Shown one piece after another: positions 1 to 4,766 of a DNA stretch of 4,766 nt (position 1 is its first letter; every line of letters begins with the position of its first letter). The DNA lies in IMG/VR virus record IMGVR_UViG_2778261165_000015; one strand, 5' to 3'. The DNA comes from a virus (lineage: Duplodnaviria; Heunggongvirae; Uroviricota; Caudoviricetes). The notes beneath the pieces are model-generated. The model did no database searches, was not told the origin of the DNA, and worked only from the letters and a program-made list of their open reading frames with translations. Position numbers and translations under genes: made by a program.

Positions 1-110
1 TGGAGATCACTGAATAACAAAATGAGTCAAAAGTGATCTCCATCGATGTTATTCAGCGATCTGTTCAAATGTTATTACCCGATCTCGATGGAAGTTATTG
101 AGTGATCTCC
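1..110. repeat. Array of GATC-containing 15-bp repeats (consensus GTTATTnnnYGATCT): direct copies at 48-62, 71-85 and 94-108 phased at exactly 23 bp, one inverted copy at 4-18, and a 9-bp inverted repeat GGAGATCAC / GTGATCTCC at 2-10 / 33-41
   Basis: Read directly: gttattcagcgatct (48-62), gttattacccgatct (71-85), gttattgagtgatct (94-108); agatcactgaataac (4-18) is the reverse complement of the consensus. GATC at 5, 36, 58, 81 and 104. The 23-bp period is not a multiple of 3, so this is a DNA-level signal, not a protein repeat. Confidence 0.8.
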
Positions 111-1851
111 TTTCATGAAAATACGCATCTTTAGCTAACTCTGGTAATTTAGCTTGTGCTTCCATTCGTTCAGGTGTAGAAGCTAATCTCTCATAACCTG
201 CATAGATAGCACTACCAGCTAATAACATATTCATAGGGTTTAGTCTTGATGGTTTCCCATTCTTTCTATTCACGTTATCCGCTGTAGTATCAGCGACCTG
301 ACCTAATCTTGTGATAGCAGTCATAAGCCCGTAAATACTTCTGGTTACACCAACAACTTTATTCACAGCAATAACACCAGCCAAGACTTTTAAACTATTA
401 ATCAAGCCAGAACCTAAAGCATCAACAACTTTCTTTTGTTCATCGGTTAAACCACGGTAAGCCAATGTCACCTCATCAAAGAAACCTCTCACCTTGTAAG
501 AAATATCAGTCAATGAATCGACACCATGTGACATATCAGTCATCAAGCTACCAAGAGATTCACCAAGACTTTTACCACTTCCACCTAAACTGTTTAAAAG
601 CGTTGTTAGGCTTCTTGTGAAATCTTGAAGACCATTTTCAGAACCTCTGAAGATACTATCAAGCGTGGTATTCCAAGAGTTTTTCAGGTTCCCTAGTTGT
701 GCCTGAGTACTTTCTGAAATAGTTTTCCAGCCACCTTTAGCGGTGATTTGTTTATTCAGTTCCTGAGTGACCTTCTGAAGAGTATCGGCAGATTTTAAAG
801 CCCCCTTCTTCATGGCATCAAATAGCTCTTGTTCATTCCTTCCGATTGCTTTAGCGAATACCTGAACCATACCAGGAACAGCTTCAGCTAATTGCCCCTT
901 AAGCTCTTCAGCCATAACCTGACCCTTACCAGCCATCTGTGATAATGCTGTCAGTGCTCGCTTAATCTCTTCTTCACTTCTCCCCATCAGACGAGCATAG
1001 CCAATCATATTTTTAAAAAGTTCTTCAGAACCTTGAATGCCCATAGACTCTTTAGCTGAAGCACCAAAACCAGCAAACTGTGATTGCAGTTCAGCGATAT
1101 CTAAACCCGTTGTTTGAGCTAATGACTTTGTGAACTCTTTTACTTGAACTGCATCTTTATCAAATACGAAATCAATTGAACGTTCAGCACTTGCACGCTG
1201 TAAACCAATTTCCATAATCTTCTGATAACTGGCTAATACAGCCTGCATTGAGATAAATGCACCTGCTGTTTTAACTGCCGCTGAAGACAGGTTATCAAGA
1301 CTATTAGCTGCTCTGTCACCATTAATGCTGGTGGATGTATGACCTTTAGCTTTAGCAATTGCTTCTCTGACTGAAGCATTTAACTGAGCTAACTTCTCAT
1401 TGAATTTTGAAGAATCCATTGACCCAGCTTTAGCAGATAGCCCGTAAAACTGAGATTTGATGTATTTCTGCAAAATAGGGTCGAAGCCTTTCAGCTTGCT
1501 CATGTTAGCCTGATAAGCTGCTCTTACAGCTCGGTCACCAGTATTTACTCTTGGCTGTCTTGGCTGTCTAAGTGGCTTTAAAGTATCCTCAATTTCCGTT
1601 TTAATCTTAAACGCTTTAGTGTTTTTAAGACGCTGCTCAATCTTGGAAACAGTTTTATCGACATTCTTTTCCATTAGTTTGAGAGAATCATTTAAAGGCG
1701 TAGGATTCACTTTAAACGCCTTATTCAATCGCTTCTCAATTCGTGATGCTACCTGCATCGTTTGTTTCTCGGCTTTTTCCAGACCTTTTAAAACTTTCTG
1801 AGAGTTAAAACTTAACTCAATCAGAAAATCATCAACTTTAAACTGTGCCAT
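49..1851 (-). CDS. Phage tail tape measure protein, lambda gpH-like (600 aa)
   Basis: 600-aa ORF with TAA stop at 49-51. N-terminus MAQFKVDDFLIELSF resembles the lambda H N-terminus as I recall it (MAEPVGDLVVDLSL). Central segment ALTALSQMAGKGQVMAEELKGQLAEAVPGMVQVFAKAIG matches the tape-measure-domain signature from memory. Helical, Ala/Leu/Lys/Gln-rich composition and a hydrophobic C-terminal stretch fit the family. SD AAGAGGTG lies 11 nt upstream of the ATG; an in-frame TGA two codons upstream fixes the start. Not verified by search. Confidence 0.75.
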   Translation of the reverse strand: MAQFKVDDFLIELSFNSQKVLKGLEKAEKQTMQVASRIEKRLNKAFKVNPTPLNDSLKLMEKNVDKTVSKIEQRLKNTKAFKIKTEIEDTLKPLRQPRQPRVNTGDRAVRAAYQANMSKLKGFDPILQKYIKSQFYGLSAKAGSMDSSKFNEKLAQLNASVREAIAKAKGHTSTSINGDRAANSLDNLSSAAVKTAGAFISMQAVLASYQKIMEIGLQRASAERSIDFVFDKDAVQVKEFTKSLAQTTGLDIAELQSQFAGFGASAKESMGIQGSEELFKNMIGYARLMGRSEEEIKRALTALSQMAGKGQVMAEELKGQLAEAVPGMVQVFAKAIGRNEQELFDAMKKGALKSADTLQKVTQELNKQITAKGGWKTISESTQAQLGNLKNSWNTTLDSIFRGSENGLQDFTRSLTTLLNSLGGSGKSLGESLGSLMTDMSHGVDSLTDISYKVRGFFDEVTLAYRGLTDEQKKVVDALGSGLINSLKVLAGVIAVNKVVGVTRSIYGLMTAITRLGQVADTTADNVNRKNGKPSRLNPMNMLLAGSAIYAGYERLASTPERMEAQAKLPELAKDAYFHERRSLNNFHRDRVITFEQIAE

Positions 1852-1879
1852 TGTTCATATTTCACCTCTTTAAGCGTGA

Positions 1880-1934
1880 GCTACGTAAAAAATAATTTTT
1901 GGTGGGTATATCTGTTCAGAAGATTTCACGTAGC
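1880..1934 (-). promoter_or_regulatory. Imperfect 11-bp inverted repeat (GCTACGTRAAA) enclosing 33 bp, in the 5' untranslated region just upstream of the tape measure RBS
   Basis: gctacgtaaaa at 1880-1890 and tttcacgtagc at 1924-1934 (10/11 complementary). Would form an 11-bp stem with one G-U pair in the minus-strand RNA, or act as a palindromic operator in DNA. Confidence 0.4.
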
Positions 1935-1961
1935 ACATAGGATTCGATAGAAGACTATCTC

Positions 1962-2010
1962 ATATACAAAAAAGGGAGAAACTACCGATATCACTCGATA
2001 ATCTCTCCCG
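1962..2010 (-). terminator. Rho-independent terminator downstream of the 69-aa gene
   Basis: Minus-strand RNA reads GGGAGAG...UUCUCCC (stem from 1974-1979 / 2004-2009, with an inner UAUC/GAUA helix) followed immediately by UUUUUUGUAU (A-run 1968-1973 on plus). Sits ~25 nt after the stop of the 2034..2243 CDS. Confidence 0.6.
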
Positions 2011-2033
2011 TACTTTACCCAACCAATTCTTTT

Positions 2034-2243
2034 TTAATGTCTGACAAGATAATGTAGTTCCGTTTCACCTATGACTTGAGCATCAGAAGGAATACGGTCA
2101 ATACACCACTTTGGAATCTTGCGTGTTTTTGGTTTGCGTGAGGTGATAACTTGACGTTTGTTTTTAATTCTTAAGGCTGGATTGGCTTGTAACTTTAAGT
2201 TTTCACAAACAGACCGAATAGTCTCTAAACGTTCTTCAAACAT
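2034..2243 (-). CDS. Hypothetical small basic protein (69 aa)
   Basis: ORF with a strong SD (AAGAGGTG, 4-nt spacer, ATG). Lys/Arg-rich centre (RIKNKRQVITSRKPKTRKIPKW). Same frame as the upstream gene, separated by TGA and its own SD, so not a frameshift product. No family recognised. Confidence 0.6.
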   Translation of the reverse strand: MFEERLETIRSVCENLKLQANPALRIKNKRQVITSRKPKTRKIPKWCIDRIPSDAQVIGETELHYLVRH

Positions 2244-2267
2244 TAATCACCTCTTCTTAATTCATAA

Positions 2268-2978
2268 TCAAAGTGCTTTGCTGTATTTCTGAGAAATCTT
2301 AGTAAGCTGCTCAATATCAGCCTGCATAGCAATCTTCTTCTGTGATTCATATTCACTAATAATCGCTTTCATGCTATCAAGTTCTTTTTTAAGCTTTTGC
2401 TTTAACTTATCCAGCTTATCGGAGTAATGCTTAGTCAGATTAGCTTCAGCTAGCTGAAGAATCTCTTCATCTGTTTTATCAGTCATCAGAACAAATTGAC
2501 CAGAACCCCTTAATGCTTGTCTGACATCAATTAACCGGAACCCTTCAGGGATACTTTGAAGAACTTTAGGAACGTCTTCAATCGCTGTACCAAAACCATC
2601 ATTAAAGTTCCCTTCATAATAGATAAACGGGTTTGACTTAATCTCGTAAGCAATATCATATTCTGAAGGTTTCGAGGTTTCTTCGAAGTTCTTAACAGCA
2701 TCGTAAGCAATATCAAGTCTAAGACGCTGTGATTTTAAAGCTGGGTAATATTCACGCTCAAGATTAAATAGTGCTTCACTTTTGCAGATATCTGGCATTT
2801 CTTGAGGTTCAGGAGACACAAAGGTAATTTCCTTTGGTGACATCTTTAGCGATTGCTCAAGCTTAATTCTTTCATCGTGTTCTTTACGCTGAATAGCGAT
2901 AGCTGGATGTTCAGTCGTTGGTGACCAGTCACCGAAGCTATCAATCACTTTGCCATTAATGTAAATATCGTTTGTCAT
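2268..2978 (-). CDS. Hypothetical protein (236 aa) with a C-terminal coiled-coil-like region
   Basis: ORF with SD GAGG 9 nt upstream of the ATG. C-terminal ~60 residues are heptad-like and K/E/L/Q-rich (KLDKLKQKLKKELDSMKAIISEYESQKKIAMQADIEQL). No recognisable catalytic motif. Confidence 0.7.
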   Translation of the reverse strand: MTNDIYINGKVIDSFGDWSPTTEHPAIAIQRKEHDERIKLEQSLKMSPKEITFVSPEPQEMPDICKSEALFNLEREYYPALKSQRLRLDIAYDAVKNFEETSKPSEYDIAYEIKSNPFIYYEGNFNDGFGTAIEDVPKVLQSIPEGFRLIDVRQALRGSGQFVLMTDKTDEEILQLAEANLTKHYSDKLDKLKQKLKKELDSMKAIISEYESQKKIAMQADIEQLTKISQKYSKAL

Positions 2979-3003
2979 TATTTTTTTCCTCTAAGTGTGG
3001 TTA

Positions 3004-3081
3004 TTTCTTAATAGAGCACCTTCAACGCCAATACACTTAGAAGATGACTTAACGATTTATTAAAGATGCTCTATTAAGAAA
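3004..3081. repeat. Perfect 15-bp inverted repeat (TTTCTTAATAGAGCA) with arms at 3004-3018 and 3067-3081, 48-bp spacer
   Basis: Read directly; the reverse complement of 3067-3081 equals 3004-3018 exactly. Lies between hairpin H1 and the RBS of the 236-aa gene. Confidence 0.75.
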
Positions 3082-3110
3082 AGCCCTAAACATAATCTGT
3101 GAAGGGCTTT
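3071..3110 (-). terminator. Terminator-like hairpin H1 (AAAGCCCT / AGGGCTTT stem, 15-nt loop) followed by UUUUCUU on the minus strand
   Basis: Stem 3080-3087 / 3103-3110. The U-tract overlaps one arm of the 15-bp inverted repeat. Short stem, so termination is likely partial. Confidence 0.4.
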
Positions 3111-3170
3111 GAAGGTTTGCTTTATAACGTTAACGAAGTTTCAGGAAAAACTTTCTTTAAAAGCTCTGTT

Positions 3171-3209
3171 TAAAAACTCTTAAAGAAAGCCCTAATCATG
3201 AGTTAGGGC
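3171..3209 (-). terminator. Rho-independent terminator H2 (GCCCTAA / TTAGGGC stem, 7-nt loop) followed by UUUCUUUAAGAGUUUUU
   Basis: Perfect 7-bp stem at 3189-3195 / 3203-3209 with a U-rich tract on the minus strand. Shares the AAGAAA(A)GCCCTAA module with H1. Confidence 0.55.
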
Positions 3210-3255
3210 AAAGCTGTAAAGGATTCAAACGAATGAACAAAGACTTTTTGAGATA

Positions 3256-3280
3256 GCCTCTCAAGTTATATAAGAGAGGC
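3256..3280 (-). other. Stem-loop H3 (GCCTCTC / GAGAGGC, 11-nt loop) within the leader; no adjacent U-tract
   Basis: Perfect 7-bp inverted repeat read directly; flanks are not U-rich on either strand, so probably not a terminator. Confidence 0.4.
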
Positions 3281-3377
3281 CATGACGAAAAGCATTGCAC
3301 CTTTCCAACTCAGAATATCCATCCATCGGATTATTGAAAATATGATTTTAGGAAAAATTGCTCTTCCTATATATACA

Positions 3378-3406
3378 ATTATGTCATGCTCAAGGTTATT
3401 TGTCAA
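3378..3406 (-). promoter_or_regulatory. Near-consensus sigma70-type promoter: -35 TTGACA, 17-bp spacer, extended -10 TGaCATAAT
   Basis: Minus strand reads gctgTTGACAaataaccttgagcaTGaCATAATtgtatat. -35 is 6/6, spacer 17, -10 is 5/6 with a TG at -15/-14. Predicted start site near 3371, transcribing toward the terminators and the 236-aa gene. Confidence 0.55.
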
Positions 3407-3431
3407 CAGCTTTTAACAGATTGATAACAAT

Positions 3432-3497
3432 CTATACTTTAATAGACGCACCTGCAATCATACCAACCAATACAAAACAGATAATCACCAATTCCAT
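3432..3497 (-). CDS. Candidate 21-aa hydrophobic micro-protein (MELVIICFVLVGMIAGASIKV), a single predicted transmembrane helix
   Basis: Not in the supplied ORF track (too short). ATG overlaps the upstream TAA stop (TAATG). SD AAGGTGG sits 7 nt upstream. A 17-residue uninterrupted hydrophobic core is flanked by E and K. TAG stop at 3432-3434. Confidence 0.4.
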   Translation of the reverse strand: MELVIICFVLVGMIAGASIKV

Positions 3498-3820
3498 TAA
3501 TGCACCACCTTCGAATCCGTCACCAAAATATTGTCAGCGTACAAAATTGCTATAGCTGCCTTGAGATATCTTTCAGGGCTAACGCTGTATTTGTTCGTTT
3601 GCTCAATAACCAATCTTTTCATATTACTGTCTGTAATTGGTAACATCATTCGAGGCTCGTTAAACTCCACCGAGTGAATAAAGTCAGAGATGCTTTCCGC
3701 ATTATCAGCCATTAACTCTAACAACTTATCAAAGTCAATGCTAACACCTACATCAGTGAAAGCCTGAATCATCATGGCGGTGTCGGTATCAATAAAAATC
3801 TGTAGTGGGAAATTATTCAT
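3497..3820 (-). CDS. Hypothetical protein (107 aa from ATG 3820; the track's longer 144-aa form starts at 3931)
   Basis: ATG at 3820 has an AGGA SD with 8-nt spacing. The extra 37 codons upstream (3821-3931) are GC-richer with atypical codons (CCG, CTC, AGG), lack a good SD and overlap an inverted repeat, so the shorter start is preferred. No cysteines, no recognised motif. Confidence 0.55.
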   Translation of the reverse strand: MNNFPLQIFIDTDTAMMIQAFTDVGVSIDFDKLLELMADNAESISDFIHSVEFNEPRMMLPITDSNMKRLVIEQTNKYSVSPERYLKAAIAILYADNILVTDSKVVH

Positions 3821-3899
3821 TTTTAAAATCCTATAAAAACACATCTTAAATCTGCCAAAATAACCATTCTGAGGCCAGTAACCATGCGGGTTACAGAGG

Positions 3900-3946
3900 G
3901 AGTGAGACACCTTAGTAATAGGGTAGCTCATCTTTGAGTCTCACTC
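3900..3946. repeat. 9-bp inverted repeat GAGTGAGAC / GTCTCACTC with a 29-bp spacer, between the 128-aa and 107-aa genes
   Basis: 3900-3908 and 3938-3946 are exact reverse complements. No U-tract follows, so it looks like an operator or RNA structure rather than a terminator. Confidence 0.45.
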
Positions 3947-3958
3947 ATTCTCACAGAC

Positions 3959-4345
3959 TTACACAGACGCTTTAATCTTGTAGTATTGACTACGTGATAA
4001 GCCGTATTTCTCAGAAATATAACTTTGTGATTGTCCTTTGGTGATTGCATCAATGATTAAATCTTTATCGTATCTGTTACCGTTGGCTTTGTGCTTGTCA
4101 CTATTTTTAATAGAGTTGAAGTTCTCCATTAATTCAATGGCGTCTTTAAGGTCGCTTTCGTAAGCATAATCAAAACCTCTGATAAACTCGAAATCACCAT
4201 TATCTTTTTGTGCTTCAGCCCAGATATCAAATCTTGAGGCTAATTGCTGGTGGGTAAACTTGGGTTTATTGGTTTGTGTTACGTCTTTCCAGACTTTACC
4301 GTCAAATCTTACCAAATGGTCACGATGTTTATAAAAGTCATACAT
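3959..4345 (-). CDS. Hypothetical DNA-binding protein (128 aa) with a C-terminal resolvase/Hin-type helix-turn-helix
   Basis: Strong SD GGAGG 4 nt before the ATG, which overlaps the upstream stop (TAATG). C-terminus KGQSQSYISEKYGLSRSQYYKIK resembles the Hin/Gin recombinase HTH (GIGVSTLYRYF pattern). The ~95-aa N-terminal part is too short and lacks the serine-recombinase catalytic signature. Confidence 0.7.
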   Translation of the reverse strand: MYDFYKHRDHLVRFDGKVWKDVTQTNKPKFTHQQLASRFDIWAEAQKDNGDFEFIRGFDYAYESDLKDAIELMENFNSIKNSDKHKANGNRYDKDLIIDAITKGQSQSYISEKYGLSRSQYYKIKASV

Positions 4346-4581
4346 TAAACCTCCATCGCTAATTTGTGAATTTTGATACTTAGTAACCTTGCTAAATCCA
4401 GTCCAAAAGCATTTAAAGATTTCAGACTATCAAGGTCATCTTTCTTAATCCTGACATGGTGTCTTGCTGCCTCTAAACGACTATTAAGCAAATCCTGCTC
4501 GTTAATATCACGGTTAATTGCAAGCTTCATCACTGCTGAGTGCTGAGAGATCCCCTCATAATTTCCCCAAAGCGTAACCAT
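4345..4581 (-). CDS. Hypothetical protein (78 aa as drawn; start uncertain)
   Basis: ORF whose stop overlaps the start of the 128-aa gene. No convincing SD before ATG 4581 or the internal GTG/ATG at codons 17/18. The first 26 nt overlap the upstream partial ORF. Confidence 0.45.
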   Translation of the reverse strand: MVTLWGNYEGISQHSAVMKLAINRDINEQDLLNSRLEAARHHVRIKKDDLDSLKSLNAFGLDLARLLSIKIHKLAMEV

Positions 4582-4766
4582 GTGTGAATAAATTTTGAGC
4601 TAGTAGGGTTGCAGCCACGAGTAAGTCTTCCCTTGTTATTGTGTAGCCAGAATGCCGCAAAACTTCCATGCCTAAGCGAACTGTTGAGAGTACGTTTCGA
4701 TTTCTGACTGTGTTAGCCTGGAAGTGCTTGTCCCAACCTTGTTTCTGAGCATGAACGCCCGCAAGC
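4556..4766 (-). CDS. 3' end of a gene whose 5' part lies beyond the window (69 codons visible, C-terminus ...LFTHGYALGKL)
   Basis: Stop-free minus-strand frame from the window edge to TGA at 4556-4558, not in the supplied track because no start is in the window. GC content here is visibly higher (~47%) than the rest. Confidence 0.45.
   Translation of the reverse strand, partial: LAGVHAQKQGWDKHFQANTVRNRNVLSTVRLGMEVLRHSGYTITREDLLVAATLLAQNLFTHGYALGKL

What the first reader, a model, noticed from the sequence alone, without database searches (positions are those of the whole stretch)
3959..4345. Stand-alone resolvase-type HTH protein as candidate regulator
The C-terminal HTH is resolvase/Hin-like but the N-terminal domain is not a serine recombinase catalytic domain. 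Such stand-alone HTH proteins in phages can be small terminase subunits or transcriptional regulators. Its position upstream of the inverted repeat, the promoter and the leader makes a regulatory role plausible.
Basis: inference. Interest (0 to 1): 0.4.

Follow-up and report, generated by a model that had tools for sequence, protein, structure and literature searches.

The report
Small DNA-binding protein of a satellite-like island
The ORF is a real, conserved 128-residue gene whose C-terminus looks like a resolvase-type DNA-binding helix-turn-helix, and it is a core gene not of a phage but of an apparently undescribed ~11-kb mobile island of E. coli that carries tail genes copied from virulent Felix O1-like phages; its regulatory role is plausible but unproven.

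Summary
The ORF at 3959-4345 lies on the minus strand and is a real gene. It encodes 128 aa, has a GGAGG ribosome-binding site, and its start overlaps the upstream stop (TAATG). dN/dS is 0.18-0.35, and it occurs in 127 of 5426 complete E. coli genomes.

AlphaFold gives an N-terminal alpha/beta domain with no recognisable relative, a disordered linker carrying a conserved G-N-R-Y motif, and a C-terminal three-helix HTH. Pfam, a PDB profile search and Foldseek all point to the resolvase DNA-binding region. All are below significance. No recombinase catalytic domain is present.

The host element is not a phage. It is an ~11.5-kb integrative island found at five or more chromosomal sites. It carries a large serine recombinase plus tape-measure and Dit-like genes homologous to Felixounavirus. 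The target sits in the island's early operon.

Best reading (about 0.5): a sequence-specific DNA-binding regulator. The best candidate sites are TGTTA repeats abutting the -35 of the island's two paralogous promoters; the same motif fills the Felixounavirus terminal repeat. No result links the protein to any site.

The "GATC array" is an ISEc12 end. IS10 has cut this copy from its native promoter. The 3900-3946 repeat is a covarying hairpin.

The parts
3959..4345 (-). Coding sequence of the 128-aa protein (identical to WP_000272010.1), stop codon included.
4097..4345 (-). N-terminal alpha/beta domain, residues 1-83. Strands at 2-7, 10-14, 19-21 and 53-58; helices at 32-45 and 63-76/83. Invariant residues: H7, L11, V12, R13, W19, D21, P28, H32, F39, W42, F52, D59. 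No recognisable family.
4067..4096 (-). Predicted disordered linker, residues 84-93, with the conserved basic motif K-x-K-x-N-G-N-R-Y. It aligns with the G-R-K-R minor-groove arm of gamma-delta resolvase.
   Evidence: pLDDT below 50 yet nearly invariant. In-register alignment to 1res/1gdt. The minor-groove role is inference.
3965..4066 (-). C-terminal three-helix HTH, residues 94-127. The putative recognition helix is S-R-S-Q-Y-Y-K-I-K.
   Evidence: All sequence and fold matches are below significance thresholds.
4345..4354 (-). Translation signals. GGAGG Shine-Dalgarno at 4354-4350. TAATG stop/start overlap with the upstream gene at 4347-4343.
   Evidence: Read from the sequence. The same shared stop/start coordinate is seen in L005, L007, L010 and L012.
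4345..4542 (-). 3' part of the translationally coupled upstream gene (93 aa when intact, possibly ribbon-helix-helix). It is truncated here by IS10, which starts at 4543.
   Evidence: Intact copy at L002 23792-24073. The ribbon-helix-helix assignment is inference only.
3883..3951 (-). Conserved element directly downstream of the stop codon. It has a 9-bp stem (3938-3946 with 3900-3908), extendable to 14 bp (3895-3951), and a 29-nt loop. An invariant 20-mer, CTCCCTCTGTAACCCGCATG, lies at 3902-3883.
   Evidence: the repeat finder I11. 100% pairing in 5 distinct sequences, with 4 pairs changed on both sides. The 20-mer is present in all 12 E. coli island loci.
3378..3429 (-). Promoter of the structural operon. 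-35 TTGACA at 3406-3401, 17-nt spacer, TG-extended -10 CATAAT at 3383-3378. It is preceded by and overlaps TGTTA repeats at 10-12 bp phasing (3429-3402). This is the best candidate operator, but it is not linked to this protein by any result.
   Evidence: 1 match against 0 in 200 shuffles.
2979..3377 (-). Roughly 390-nt leader between the promoter and the 236-aa gene. It has terminator-like hairpins at 3209-3189 and 3110-3081 and a 22-nt-arm inverted repeat at 3004-3081. This is context, the presumed object of regulation.

Best explanation
The gene encodes a small two-domain, sequence-specific DNA-binding protein. It is a core regulatory component of an ~11.5-kb integrative island, probably a phage satellite, that is associated with virulent Felix O1-like phages.

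Shown:
- It is a real gene under purifying selection.
- It is translationally coupled to the upstream 93-aa gene.
- It sits in the island's early operon: a winged-helix DnaD_N-like protein, the 93-aa protein, this protein, a 107-aa protein and a tiny hydrophobic peptide.
- That operon lies upstream of a separately promoted, terminator-studded operon encoding a 236-aa protein, a 69-aa protein, the tape measure and the Dit-like protein.
- The protein is predicted to fold as an N-terminal alpha/beta domain, a flexible basic linker and a three-helix HTH. The closest sequence and structure matches, none significant, are the arm plus HTH of small serine recombinases.

Inferred:
- The N-terminal domain and long helix mediate dimerisation or partner binding.
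- The G-N-R-Y arm lies in the minor groove and helix 3 in the major groove, as in resolvase and Hin.
- The protein binds repeated sites in the island's control regions. The best candidates are the TGTTA-N6/7-TGTTAA repeats that abut and overlap the -35 of the two paralogous near-consensus sigma-70 promoters (early and structural).
- Because those promoters need no activator, the likeliest action is repression or timing, including autoregulation.
- The same TGTTAR motif is packed into the Felixounavirus terminal repeat, so infection could alter occupancy of the island's sites.
For: Real gene: (127 of 5426 genomes).

HTH:
- Sub-threshold Pfam hits to HTH_28, HTH_7 and HTH_23 in 7-9 of 10 members.
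- In-register PDB profile hits to gamma-delta and Tn3 resolvase DNA-binding domains.
- Foldseek top hits are resolvases.
- Two concordant AlphaFold models.
- The arm motif and helix-3 residues are conserved.

Context:
- Gene order is conserved in islands at five or more chromosomal sites.
- A distant homologue, P0019, holds the same position in a different island with a tyrosine integrase and capsid genes.
- The promoter and leader are conserved.
- Each island has two promoters with identical TGTTA-repeat architecture.
- TGTTAR is enriched about 14-fold in the Felixounavirus noncoding region (30 per kb against about 2 per kb), and that region is the 651-bp terminal repeat.
- The Dit-like gene is 59-79% identical in protein, and up to 92% in DNA, to Bas63. 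The tape measure is homologous end to end.

Precedent: the satellite PLE encodes CapR, a DNA-binding protein that represses a helper-phage operon (PMC8096241).
Against: - Every HTH match is below its curated or significance threshold.
- The alignment behind the models is shallow (10-12 sequences).
- Nothing links this protein, rather than its neighbours, to the TGTTA repeats. The neighbours are the winged-helix 184-322-aa protein and the possibly ribbon-helix-helix 93-aa and 107-aa proteins. Head-to-tail repeats at 11-bp spacing are more typical of winged-helix or RHH binders.
- The TGTTA core is unchanged in islands whose recognition helix differs (L012, L007), so there is no informative covariation.
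- The N-terminal domain has no recognisable fold. Its invariant His, Asp and Arg residues could indicate another activity.
- The satellite status of the island is itself inferred. No excision, replication or transfer data exist.
Confidence: 0.5

Rival explanations
1. Packaging or terminal-repeat factor. The protein binds the TGTTAR arrays of the helper phage's terminal repeat, and the few copies in the island. It either redirects the helper terminase to island DNA, in the manner of a satellite small terminase, or blocks helper packaging.
For: TGTTAR arrays fill the 651-bp terminal repeat of Felixounavirus. Islands carry short patches matching that region, including a 25/25 match near the repeat's right end (8 hits against 0-2 in control regions). 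Weak Foldseek similarity to a 'Terminase small subunit' at E=0.21.
Against: The domain order is the reverse of typical small terminases, which have an N-terminal HTH. There are no PHROG or Pfam terminase hits. Bas63 has no homologue. The island has no TerL. The island's TGTTA copies sit exactly at promoters, which suits transcription control better.
Confidence: 0.12
2. Q-like antitermination factor. The protein engages RNA polymerase at the strong structural promoter and lets it read through the leader terminators and the terminator before the tape-measure gene.
For: An 11/12 consensus promoter with an extended -10 is followed by a ~390-nt leader with two terminator-like hairpins. Another terminator lies at 2009-1974. 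This layout resembles lambda Q/pR'/tR' (own knowledge). The gene lies shortly upstream of that promoter.
Against: No match to any antiterminator family at E<=1. At 128 aa it is smaller than known Q proteins. The 107-aa gene, not this one, is immediately adjacent to the promoter. The early promoter has the same repeat architecture but no comparable leader.
Confidence: 0.1
3. Replication accessory protein. It binds the island's origin together with the upstream winged-helix DnaD_N-like protein.
For: Same operon as a protein with weak DnaD_N, HTH_36 and HTH_Crp_2 matches. The repeated 11-bp-phased motifs resemble iterons.
Against: The repeats coincide with promoters. No origin has been identified. 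The replication role of the neighbour is itself only a weak inference, since all its hits are below cut-off.
Confidence: 0.08
4. Recombination directionality factor or excision accessory for the island's recombinase.
For: A resolvase-like DNA-binding module in an element that moves by a serine recombinase. Many islands also carry a small resolvase.
Against: An identical protein (WP_000272010.1) occurs in islands whose large serine recombinases are only 35% identical and use different sites. A homologue occurs with a tyrosine integrase. No similarity to the islands' small resolvase. The gene is internal, far from the island ends.
Confidence: 0.05
5. Not primarily DNA-binding. The N-terminal domain carries another activity, such as a degenerate nuclease-like fold or the toxin partner of the overlapping 93-aa gene, and the C-terminal helices are only a tether.
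Against: No Pfam, NCBIfam or PADLOC hit for any such family. The structural hits are insignificant. The arm and HTH are the most conserved part within group A.
Confidence: 0.06

Closest known systems
C-terminal DNA-binding region (arm plus HTH_7) of small serine recombinases: gamma-delta and Tn3 resolvase, Sin, Hin
   Same: A three-helix HTH preceded by a flexible basic arm (G-N-R-Y against G-R-K-R) and a long helix. These are the best, in-register, matches among solved structures by both sequence profile and Foldseek.
   Different: No catalytic domain and no Ser nucleophile motif. The N-terminal fold is unrelated. All matches are below significance. No similarity to the small resolvase encoded in sister islands.
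Mu Mor / C middle- and late-gene activators (PF08765)
   Same: About 130 aa, with an N-terminal dimerisation part and a C-terminal HTH. A small phage-type regulator acting just upstream of a promoter (own knowledge).
   Different: No PF08765 match at E<=1. The promoters here have consensus -35 elements and need no activator.
PLE CapR (Vibrio cholerae satellite of the lytic phage ICP1)
   Same: A small DNA-binding protein of novel family, encoded by a satellite of a virulent myophage and acting on specific promoter DNA (PMC8096241). PLE also uses a large serine recombinase.
   Different: No sequence relationship. CapR derives from a homing-endonuclease DNA-binding domain. Its target is helper DNA, which is shown experimentally, whereas no target is known here.
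Lambdoid Q antiterminators
   Same: The gene lies upstream of a strong promoter followed by a terminated leader and a structural operon.
   Different: No homology, much smaller, and not the gene immediately adjacent to the promoter.
Phage small terminase subunits, including SaPI-encoded TerS
   Same: A small HTH protein in a phage-related element.
   Different: The HTH is at the wrong end. No terminase family hit, no TerL neighbour and no helper homologue.

Membership tests
Small serine recombinase (resolvase/invertase) | N-terminal catalytic domain (PF00239) with the active-site serine | tested here: not met
   No PF00239 hit at E<=1. The island's true recombinases hit it at 7e-16. The predicted topology b-b-b-a-b-a is different.
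Small serine recombinase (resolvase/invertase) | C-terminal HTH_7 domain above the Pfam gathering score | tested here: inconclusive
   HTH_7 scores 14.4 bits against a cut-off of 23.8, and 7 of 10 members hit it with best E=0.014. PDB profile hits E 0.14-0.6. Foldseek E 0.29-2.
Helix-turn-helix DNA-binding proteins (Pfam HTH clan) | A three-helix bundle with a turn and a recognition helix | tested here: met
   Two AlphaFold models give helices at 94-102, 107-114 and 118-127 with pLDDT 73-86. Conserved G104 in the loop between helices 1 and 2, and S117 at the start of helix 3. This is prediction, not experiment.
Helix-turn-helix DNA-binding proteins (Pfam HTH clan) | Demonstrated sequence-specific DNA binding | not testable with these tools
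   Needs EMSA, footprinting or ChIP.
Small terminase subunit | Match to a terminase small-subunit family, an N-terminal DNA-binding domain with a central oligomerisation domain, and a gene next to TerL | tested here: not met
   No Pfam or PHROG terminase hit. The HTH is C-terminal. No island has a TerL. No homologue in Felixounavirus Bas63.
Mor/C transcription activators | PF08765 match | tested here: not met
   Absent at E<=1.
Q-type antiterminators | Match to a Q family; action on a terminated leader | tested here: not met
   No antiterminator family among the Pfam hits. The leader context exists, but action on it is not testable here.
Recombination directionality factor | Co-variation with, and specificity for, the cognate integrase | tested here: not met
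   An identical protein occurs with 35%-identical recombinases. A homologue occurs with a tyrosine integrase.
GIY-YIG / I-TevI-like endonuclease with C-terminal HTH | GIY-YIG motif residues and a PF01541 or T5orf172 match | tested here: not met
Phage satellite (the host element, not the protein) | A small integrative element with its own integrase that lacks a full virion gene set and shows a specific relationship to a helper phage | tested here: met
   11.4-11.6 kb, with a large serine recombinase, found at five or more sites, with yecE split by insertion. Only the tape-measure and Dit-like genes are structural, and both are homologous to Felixounavirus, up to 92% in DNA.
Phage satellite (the host element, not the protein) | Helper-dependent induction, packaging and transfer | not testable with these tools
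   Needs infection and transduction experiments.

The most novel reading that the evidence does not exclude
The protein is the repressor, or a co-repressor, of an undescribed class of E. coli satellites that parasitise virulent Felix O1-like phages. It holds the island's two near-consensus promoters shut by binding TGTTA repeats. It is titrated away when an infecting Felixounavirus brings in, and replicates, terminal repeats carrying dozens of the same motif. Induction would then work by operator decoy rather than by a phage antirepressor protein. The island would then express its own tape-measure and Dit proteins to remodel or poison helper tails.
Probability: 0.12. Interest if true: 0.8.

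Novelty: new variant of a known kind. Interest (0 to 1): 0.45.

Why it matters
On its own, the protein is one more small HTH protein.

It matters because it is a conserved core gene of an island family that I could not find described in the searchable literature. These are compact recombinase-borne elements that carry homologues of only the tape-measure and Dit-like genes of virulent Felixounaviruses. In one relative the cargo is only capsid genes distantly related to those of large myophages.

If these are satellites or tail-interference elements of lytic coliphages widely used in phage therapy collections, their regulator is the entry point to how they sense infection. The shared TGTTAR motif between island promoters and the phage terminal repeat gives a concrete, testable link.

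Tried and rejected
- **Sequence families.** Pfam, PHROGs, NCBIfam and PADLOC gave nothing above threshold for the protein.
- **Homologue searches.** Two searches of the 5.8-billion-protein set and one profile search of 1.84 billion representatives found only a tiny family: Escherichia coli and E. albertii proteins plus one protein from a metagenome contig. Hit counts were 18, 33 and 7.
- **tBLASTn against 50,697 phage genomes**, with the protein and with the distant homologue P0019, gave only noise.
- **Foldseek against BFVD** gave one significant full-length hit, A0A6G5Y9G6 (127 aa, E 3.6e-5). It is unnamed and I could not retrieve it. AFDB50 was unavailable.
- **hmmsearch of the family profile against all Bas63 ORFs** found no homologue.
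- **Rfam** found nothing real in the window.
- **RNAalifold** on an automatic alignment missed the hairpin. A hand-registered alignment was needed.

Rejected ideas:
- Derivation from the islands' small resolvase.
- An RDF role.
- The 'transposase' annotation seen in some genomes. It belongs to the 236-aa gene, not to this one.
- The GATC array as a binding site. It is an ISEc12 end.

Full report
**1. The observation**

The window holds an ORF at 3959-4345 on the minus strand, encoding 128 aa. All credible genes of the window are on that strand. The protein is identical to WP_000272010.1, annotated only as 'hypothetical protein' in RefSeq genomes.

It has a GGAGG ribosome-binding site at 4354-4350. 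Its ATG shares a base with the TAA stop of the upstream gene (TAATG). The same shared stop/start coordinate is seen in every related island.

Homologues range from 94% to 39% identity. dN/dS is 0.35 between the window and L005, and 0.18 between L007 and L010. In more distant pairs synonymous sites are saturated while the protein is retained. The gene is present in 127 of 5426 complete E. coli genomes, always chromosomal. It is a real, selected gene.

**2. The protein**

No Pfam, PHROG, NCBIfam or PADLOC family reaches threshold.

The C-terminal 35 residues give sub-threshold Pfam hits: HTH_28 (E=0.0033), HTH_7, the resolvase HTH (E=0.043), and HTH_23. Of 10 members, 9, 7 and 9 match HTH_28, HTH_7 and HTH_23.

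A profile of the family searched against PDB sequences returns the DNA-binding domains of gamma-delta and Tn3 resolvase. The alignment is in register (query 90-124 to resolvase 144-178), at E 0.14-0.6. Foldseek against the PDB ranks gamma-delta, Tn3 and Sin resolvases first, at E 0.29-2. None of these is significant alone, but three independent methods converge.

Two AlphaFold models built from different shallow alignments (pLDDT 76.0 and 78.9) agree on the following layout:
- strands at 2-7, 10-14 and 19-21;
- a helix at 32-45;
- a strand at 53-58;
- a long helix from 63;
- a disordered segment at about 80-91;
- three helices at 94-102, 107-114 and 118-127.

The disordered segment carries a nearly invariant K-x-K-x-N-G-N-R-Y motif. 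This motif aligns with the G-R-K-R arm of gamma-delta resolvase. By analogy, and as inference only, it would lie in the minor groove.

One BFVD viral protein, A0A6G5Y9G6 (127 aa), matches full-length at E 3.6e-5. It is unnamed and could not be retrieved.

**3. The element is not a phage**

Megablast against 50,697 phage genomes matches only the two ends of the window.
- Positions 4543-4766 are the inside end of IS10/ISVsa5. Island homology in other genomes stops at 4542.
- Positions 1-127 are the left end of an IS21-family ISEc12. The same 24-mer lies next to istA in L001.

The interior (128-4542) belongs to an 11.4-11.6-kb island. Its GC content is 39%, against 48-51% in the flanks. The island is found at several sites:
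- between tonB and yciI;
- next to dinB;
- inside yecE, which is split by it;
- at two further sites.

The conserved order is:
1. [small resolvase, or other cargo];
2. a divergent 58-aa gene;
3. a winged-helix protein of 184-322 aa, with weak DnaD_N and HTH_36 hits;
4. a 92-98-aa protein;
5. the target;
6. a 107-aa protein;
7. a 21-34-aa hydrophobic peptide;
8. a promoter plus leader;
9. a 236-249-aa protein;
10. a 62-72-aa protein;
11. the tape measure;
12. a Dit-like protein;
13. a large serine recombinase.

**4. Link to Felix O1-like phages**

The Dit-like protein is 59-79% identical to the protein encoded just after the tape measure in Felixounaviruses. At the DNA level it reaches 92% over 544 bp. 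The tape measure aligns end to end with that of phage Bas63, at 27-32% identity with conserved termini.

Apart from a cargo HNH endonuclease in the tonB island, no other island gene, and not the target, has a Bas63 homologue.

A distant homologue of the target, P0019, sits in the same relative position in a metagenomic island. That island has a tyrosine integrase, and its only structural genes are a Phage_cap_E capsid protein and a small upstream gene. The capsid protein is distantly related to those of phi92/rV5-type myophages.

The target is thus a core gene of a family of small islands, each carrying one or two structural genes of large virulent phages. I found no description of such elements in the searchable literature. 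Their satellite nature is inferred, not shown.

**5. Control regions**

A near-consensus sigma-70 promoter lies 90 nt downstream of the 107-aa gene. It has TTGACA at 3406-3401, a 17-nt spacer and a TG-extended CATAAT. It matches 11 of 12 positions, and the region contains fewer promoter-like sites than shuffles. It is conserved in all islands.

It is followed by a ~390-nt leader with terminator-like hairpins at 3209-3189 and 3110-3081 and the 22-nt-arm repeat at 3004-3081. A further terminator at 2009-1974 precedes the tape-measure gene.

Each island has exactly two promoters of the form TGTTA-N6/7-TGTTAA-N-TTGACA-N17-(-10). One is this structural promoter. The other drives the early operon that contains the target. 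The early promoter also has two inverted TGTTAA copies just downstream of its -10. The composite pattern occurs once in the window, against 0 in 200 shuffles.

In Bas63, TGTTA[AG] occurs 30 times in one kilobase of a noncoding region, against about 2 per kb genome-wide. Many copies have 11-bp spacing. That region is the 651-bp exact terminal repeat seen at both ends of the NBEco005 record. Felixounaviruses are reported to have direct terminal repeats (PMC11737134). Islands also share short patches with this region, including a 25/25 match near its right end.

**6. The repeat next to the gene**

Its stem differs between island groups by fully compensatory changes:
- GAGTGAGAC / GTCTCACTC;
- GAGTTGCAC / GTGCAACTC;
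- GAGTGTCAG / CTGACACTC.

All 9 pairs are formed in 5 distinct sequences, and 4 pairs are changed on both sides. The covariation score exceeds all 500 shuffles and all slid controls.

The stem is followed by a 20-mer that is invariant in all 12 E. coli loci and recognisable in L003. With 9-bp arms 29 nt apart, this looks like a transcript hairpin or another base-paired element rather than a dimer operator. A co-evolving palindromic site cannot be excluded, because the repeat is physically linked to the HTH-coding end of the gene.

**7. What it most likely does**

The best-supported reading is a sequence-specific DNA-binding regulator of the island's own programme (confidence about 0.5).
- Because both promoters are near-consensus, repression or timing is more likely than activation.
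- The TGTTA repeats that abut and overlap the -35 are the most attractive sites.
- The presence of the same motif in the phage terminal repeat suggests a route by which infection could be sensed.

These last steps are inference. The operon encodes three other possible DNA binders, and nothing assigns the repeats to this one.

Rivals:
- a terminal-repeat or packaging factor (0.12);
- a Q-like antiterminator for the terminated leader (0.10);
- a replication accessory protein (0.08);
- a non-DNA-binding role of the N-domain (0.06);
- a recombination directionality factor (0.05).

The RDF reading is disfavoured because an identical protein accompanies recombinases only 35% identical to each other and a tyrosine integrase in L003. 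The small-terminase idea fails its membership tests.

**8. State of this particular copy**

In the window the IS10 insertion removes the 5' part of the upstream gene and the early promoter. In the 100%-identical relative L001, the early promoter lies about 8 kb away, beyond IS10 and a Tn5-like insertion. The tape-measure gene is truncated by ISEc12. This island copy is decayed. The target ORF itself is intact, but its normal expression is doubtful.

**9. Verdict**

- The protein is a new variant of a known kind: an HTH DNA-binding protein with an unrecognised N-terminal domain.
- Its interest is moderate, and comes mainly from the apparently undescribed Felixounavirus-related island family in which it is a core gene.

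Noticed in passing
window 1-127: Left terminal region of an IS21-family ISEc12, with multiple GATC-containing repeats. It truncates the tape-measure gene, and ORF 49-1851 reads into it.
   Followed up: yes
window 4543-4766 (target site 4534-4542): Inside end of IS10/ISVsa5, inserted at TGCTGAGTG, which resembles the IS10 hotspot. It creates a chimeric 78-aa ORF (4345-4581) and separates the target gene from its early promoter. In relative L001 a Tn5-like kanamycin/bleomycin/streptomycin resistance unit lies within this IS10/ISVsa5 copy, splitting its transposase gene.
   Followed up: partly
window 128-4542; L002 16680-28276; L006 5522-16875; L005, L007, L012: A family of ~11.5-kb islands with a large serine recombinase (GC 39%) at five or more E. 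coli chromosomal sites. Their only phage-like structural genes are a tape measure and a Dit-like protein homologous to Felixounavirus, up to 92% in DNA. Likely a satellite or tail-interference element of virulent phages, and not found in the literature searched.
   Followed up: partly
MZ501086 (L016+L017) 70977-71566; MN994499 ends (L018, L019): The Felixounavirus 651-bp direct terminal repeat is packed with TGTTA[AG] motifs at 11-bp spacing: 30 in 1 kb against about 2 per kb elsewhere. The same motif flanks both island promoters. L007 7486-7510 is 25/25 identical to Bas63 71516-71540.
   Followed up: partly
window 3883-3951 (minus strand): A hairpin with three compensatory stem variants across islands, followed by an invariant 20-mer, CTCCCTCTGTAACCCGCATG. 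The pyrimidine-rich CUCCCUCU could pair with the AGAGG ribosome-binding sites of downstream genes. Function unknown.
   Followed up: partly
window ~3434-3499 (minus strand): A tiny hydrophobic ORF (MELVIICFVLVGMIAGASIKV, 21 aa; 34 aa in L002). Its start overlaps the stop of the 107-aa gene (TAATG). It is conserved in position across islands, with variation that fits a coding region.
   Followed up: no
window 2979-3377 and 1974-2009 (minus strand): A long leader with two similar terminator-like hairpins 106 nt apart (3189-3209, 3081-3110), a 22-nt-arm repeat at 3004-3081 abutting the ribosome-binding site of the 236-aa gene, and a strong terminator between the 69-aa gene and the tape measure. 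The loop of the first hairpin is inverted between the window and L002. This suggests control by termination or antitermination.
   Followed up: partly
L003 (ENA ERZ27235571 contig) 5690-15189: A related island with a tyrosine integrase, a small resolvase and the target homologue P0019. Instead of tail genes it has a Phage_cap_E capsid gene and a small upstream gene, distantly related to those of phi92/rV5-type myophages. The regulatory module is the same but the structural cargo differs.
   Followed up: partly
window 2268-2978: The 236-aa protein upstream of the tape measure is annotated 'transposase' in several RefSeq genomes. It has no transposase-family hit and no Felixounavirus homologue, so the label is probably a mis-annotation. 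It may be a tail-assembly chaperone analogue.
   Followed up: partly
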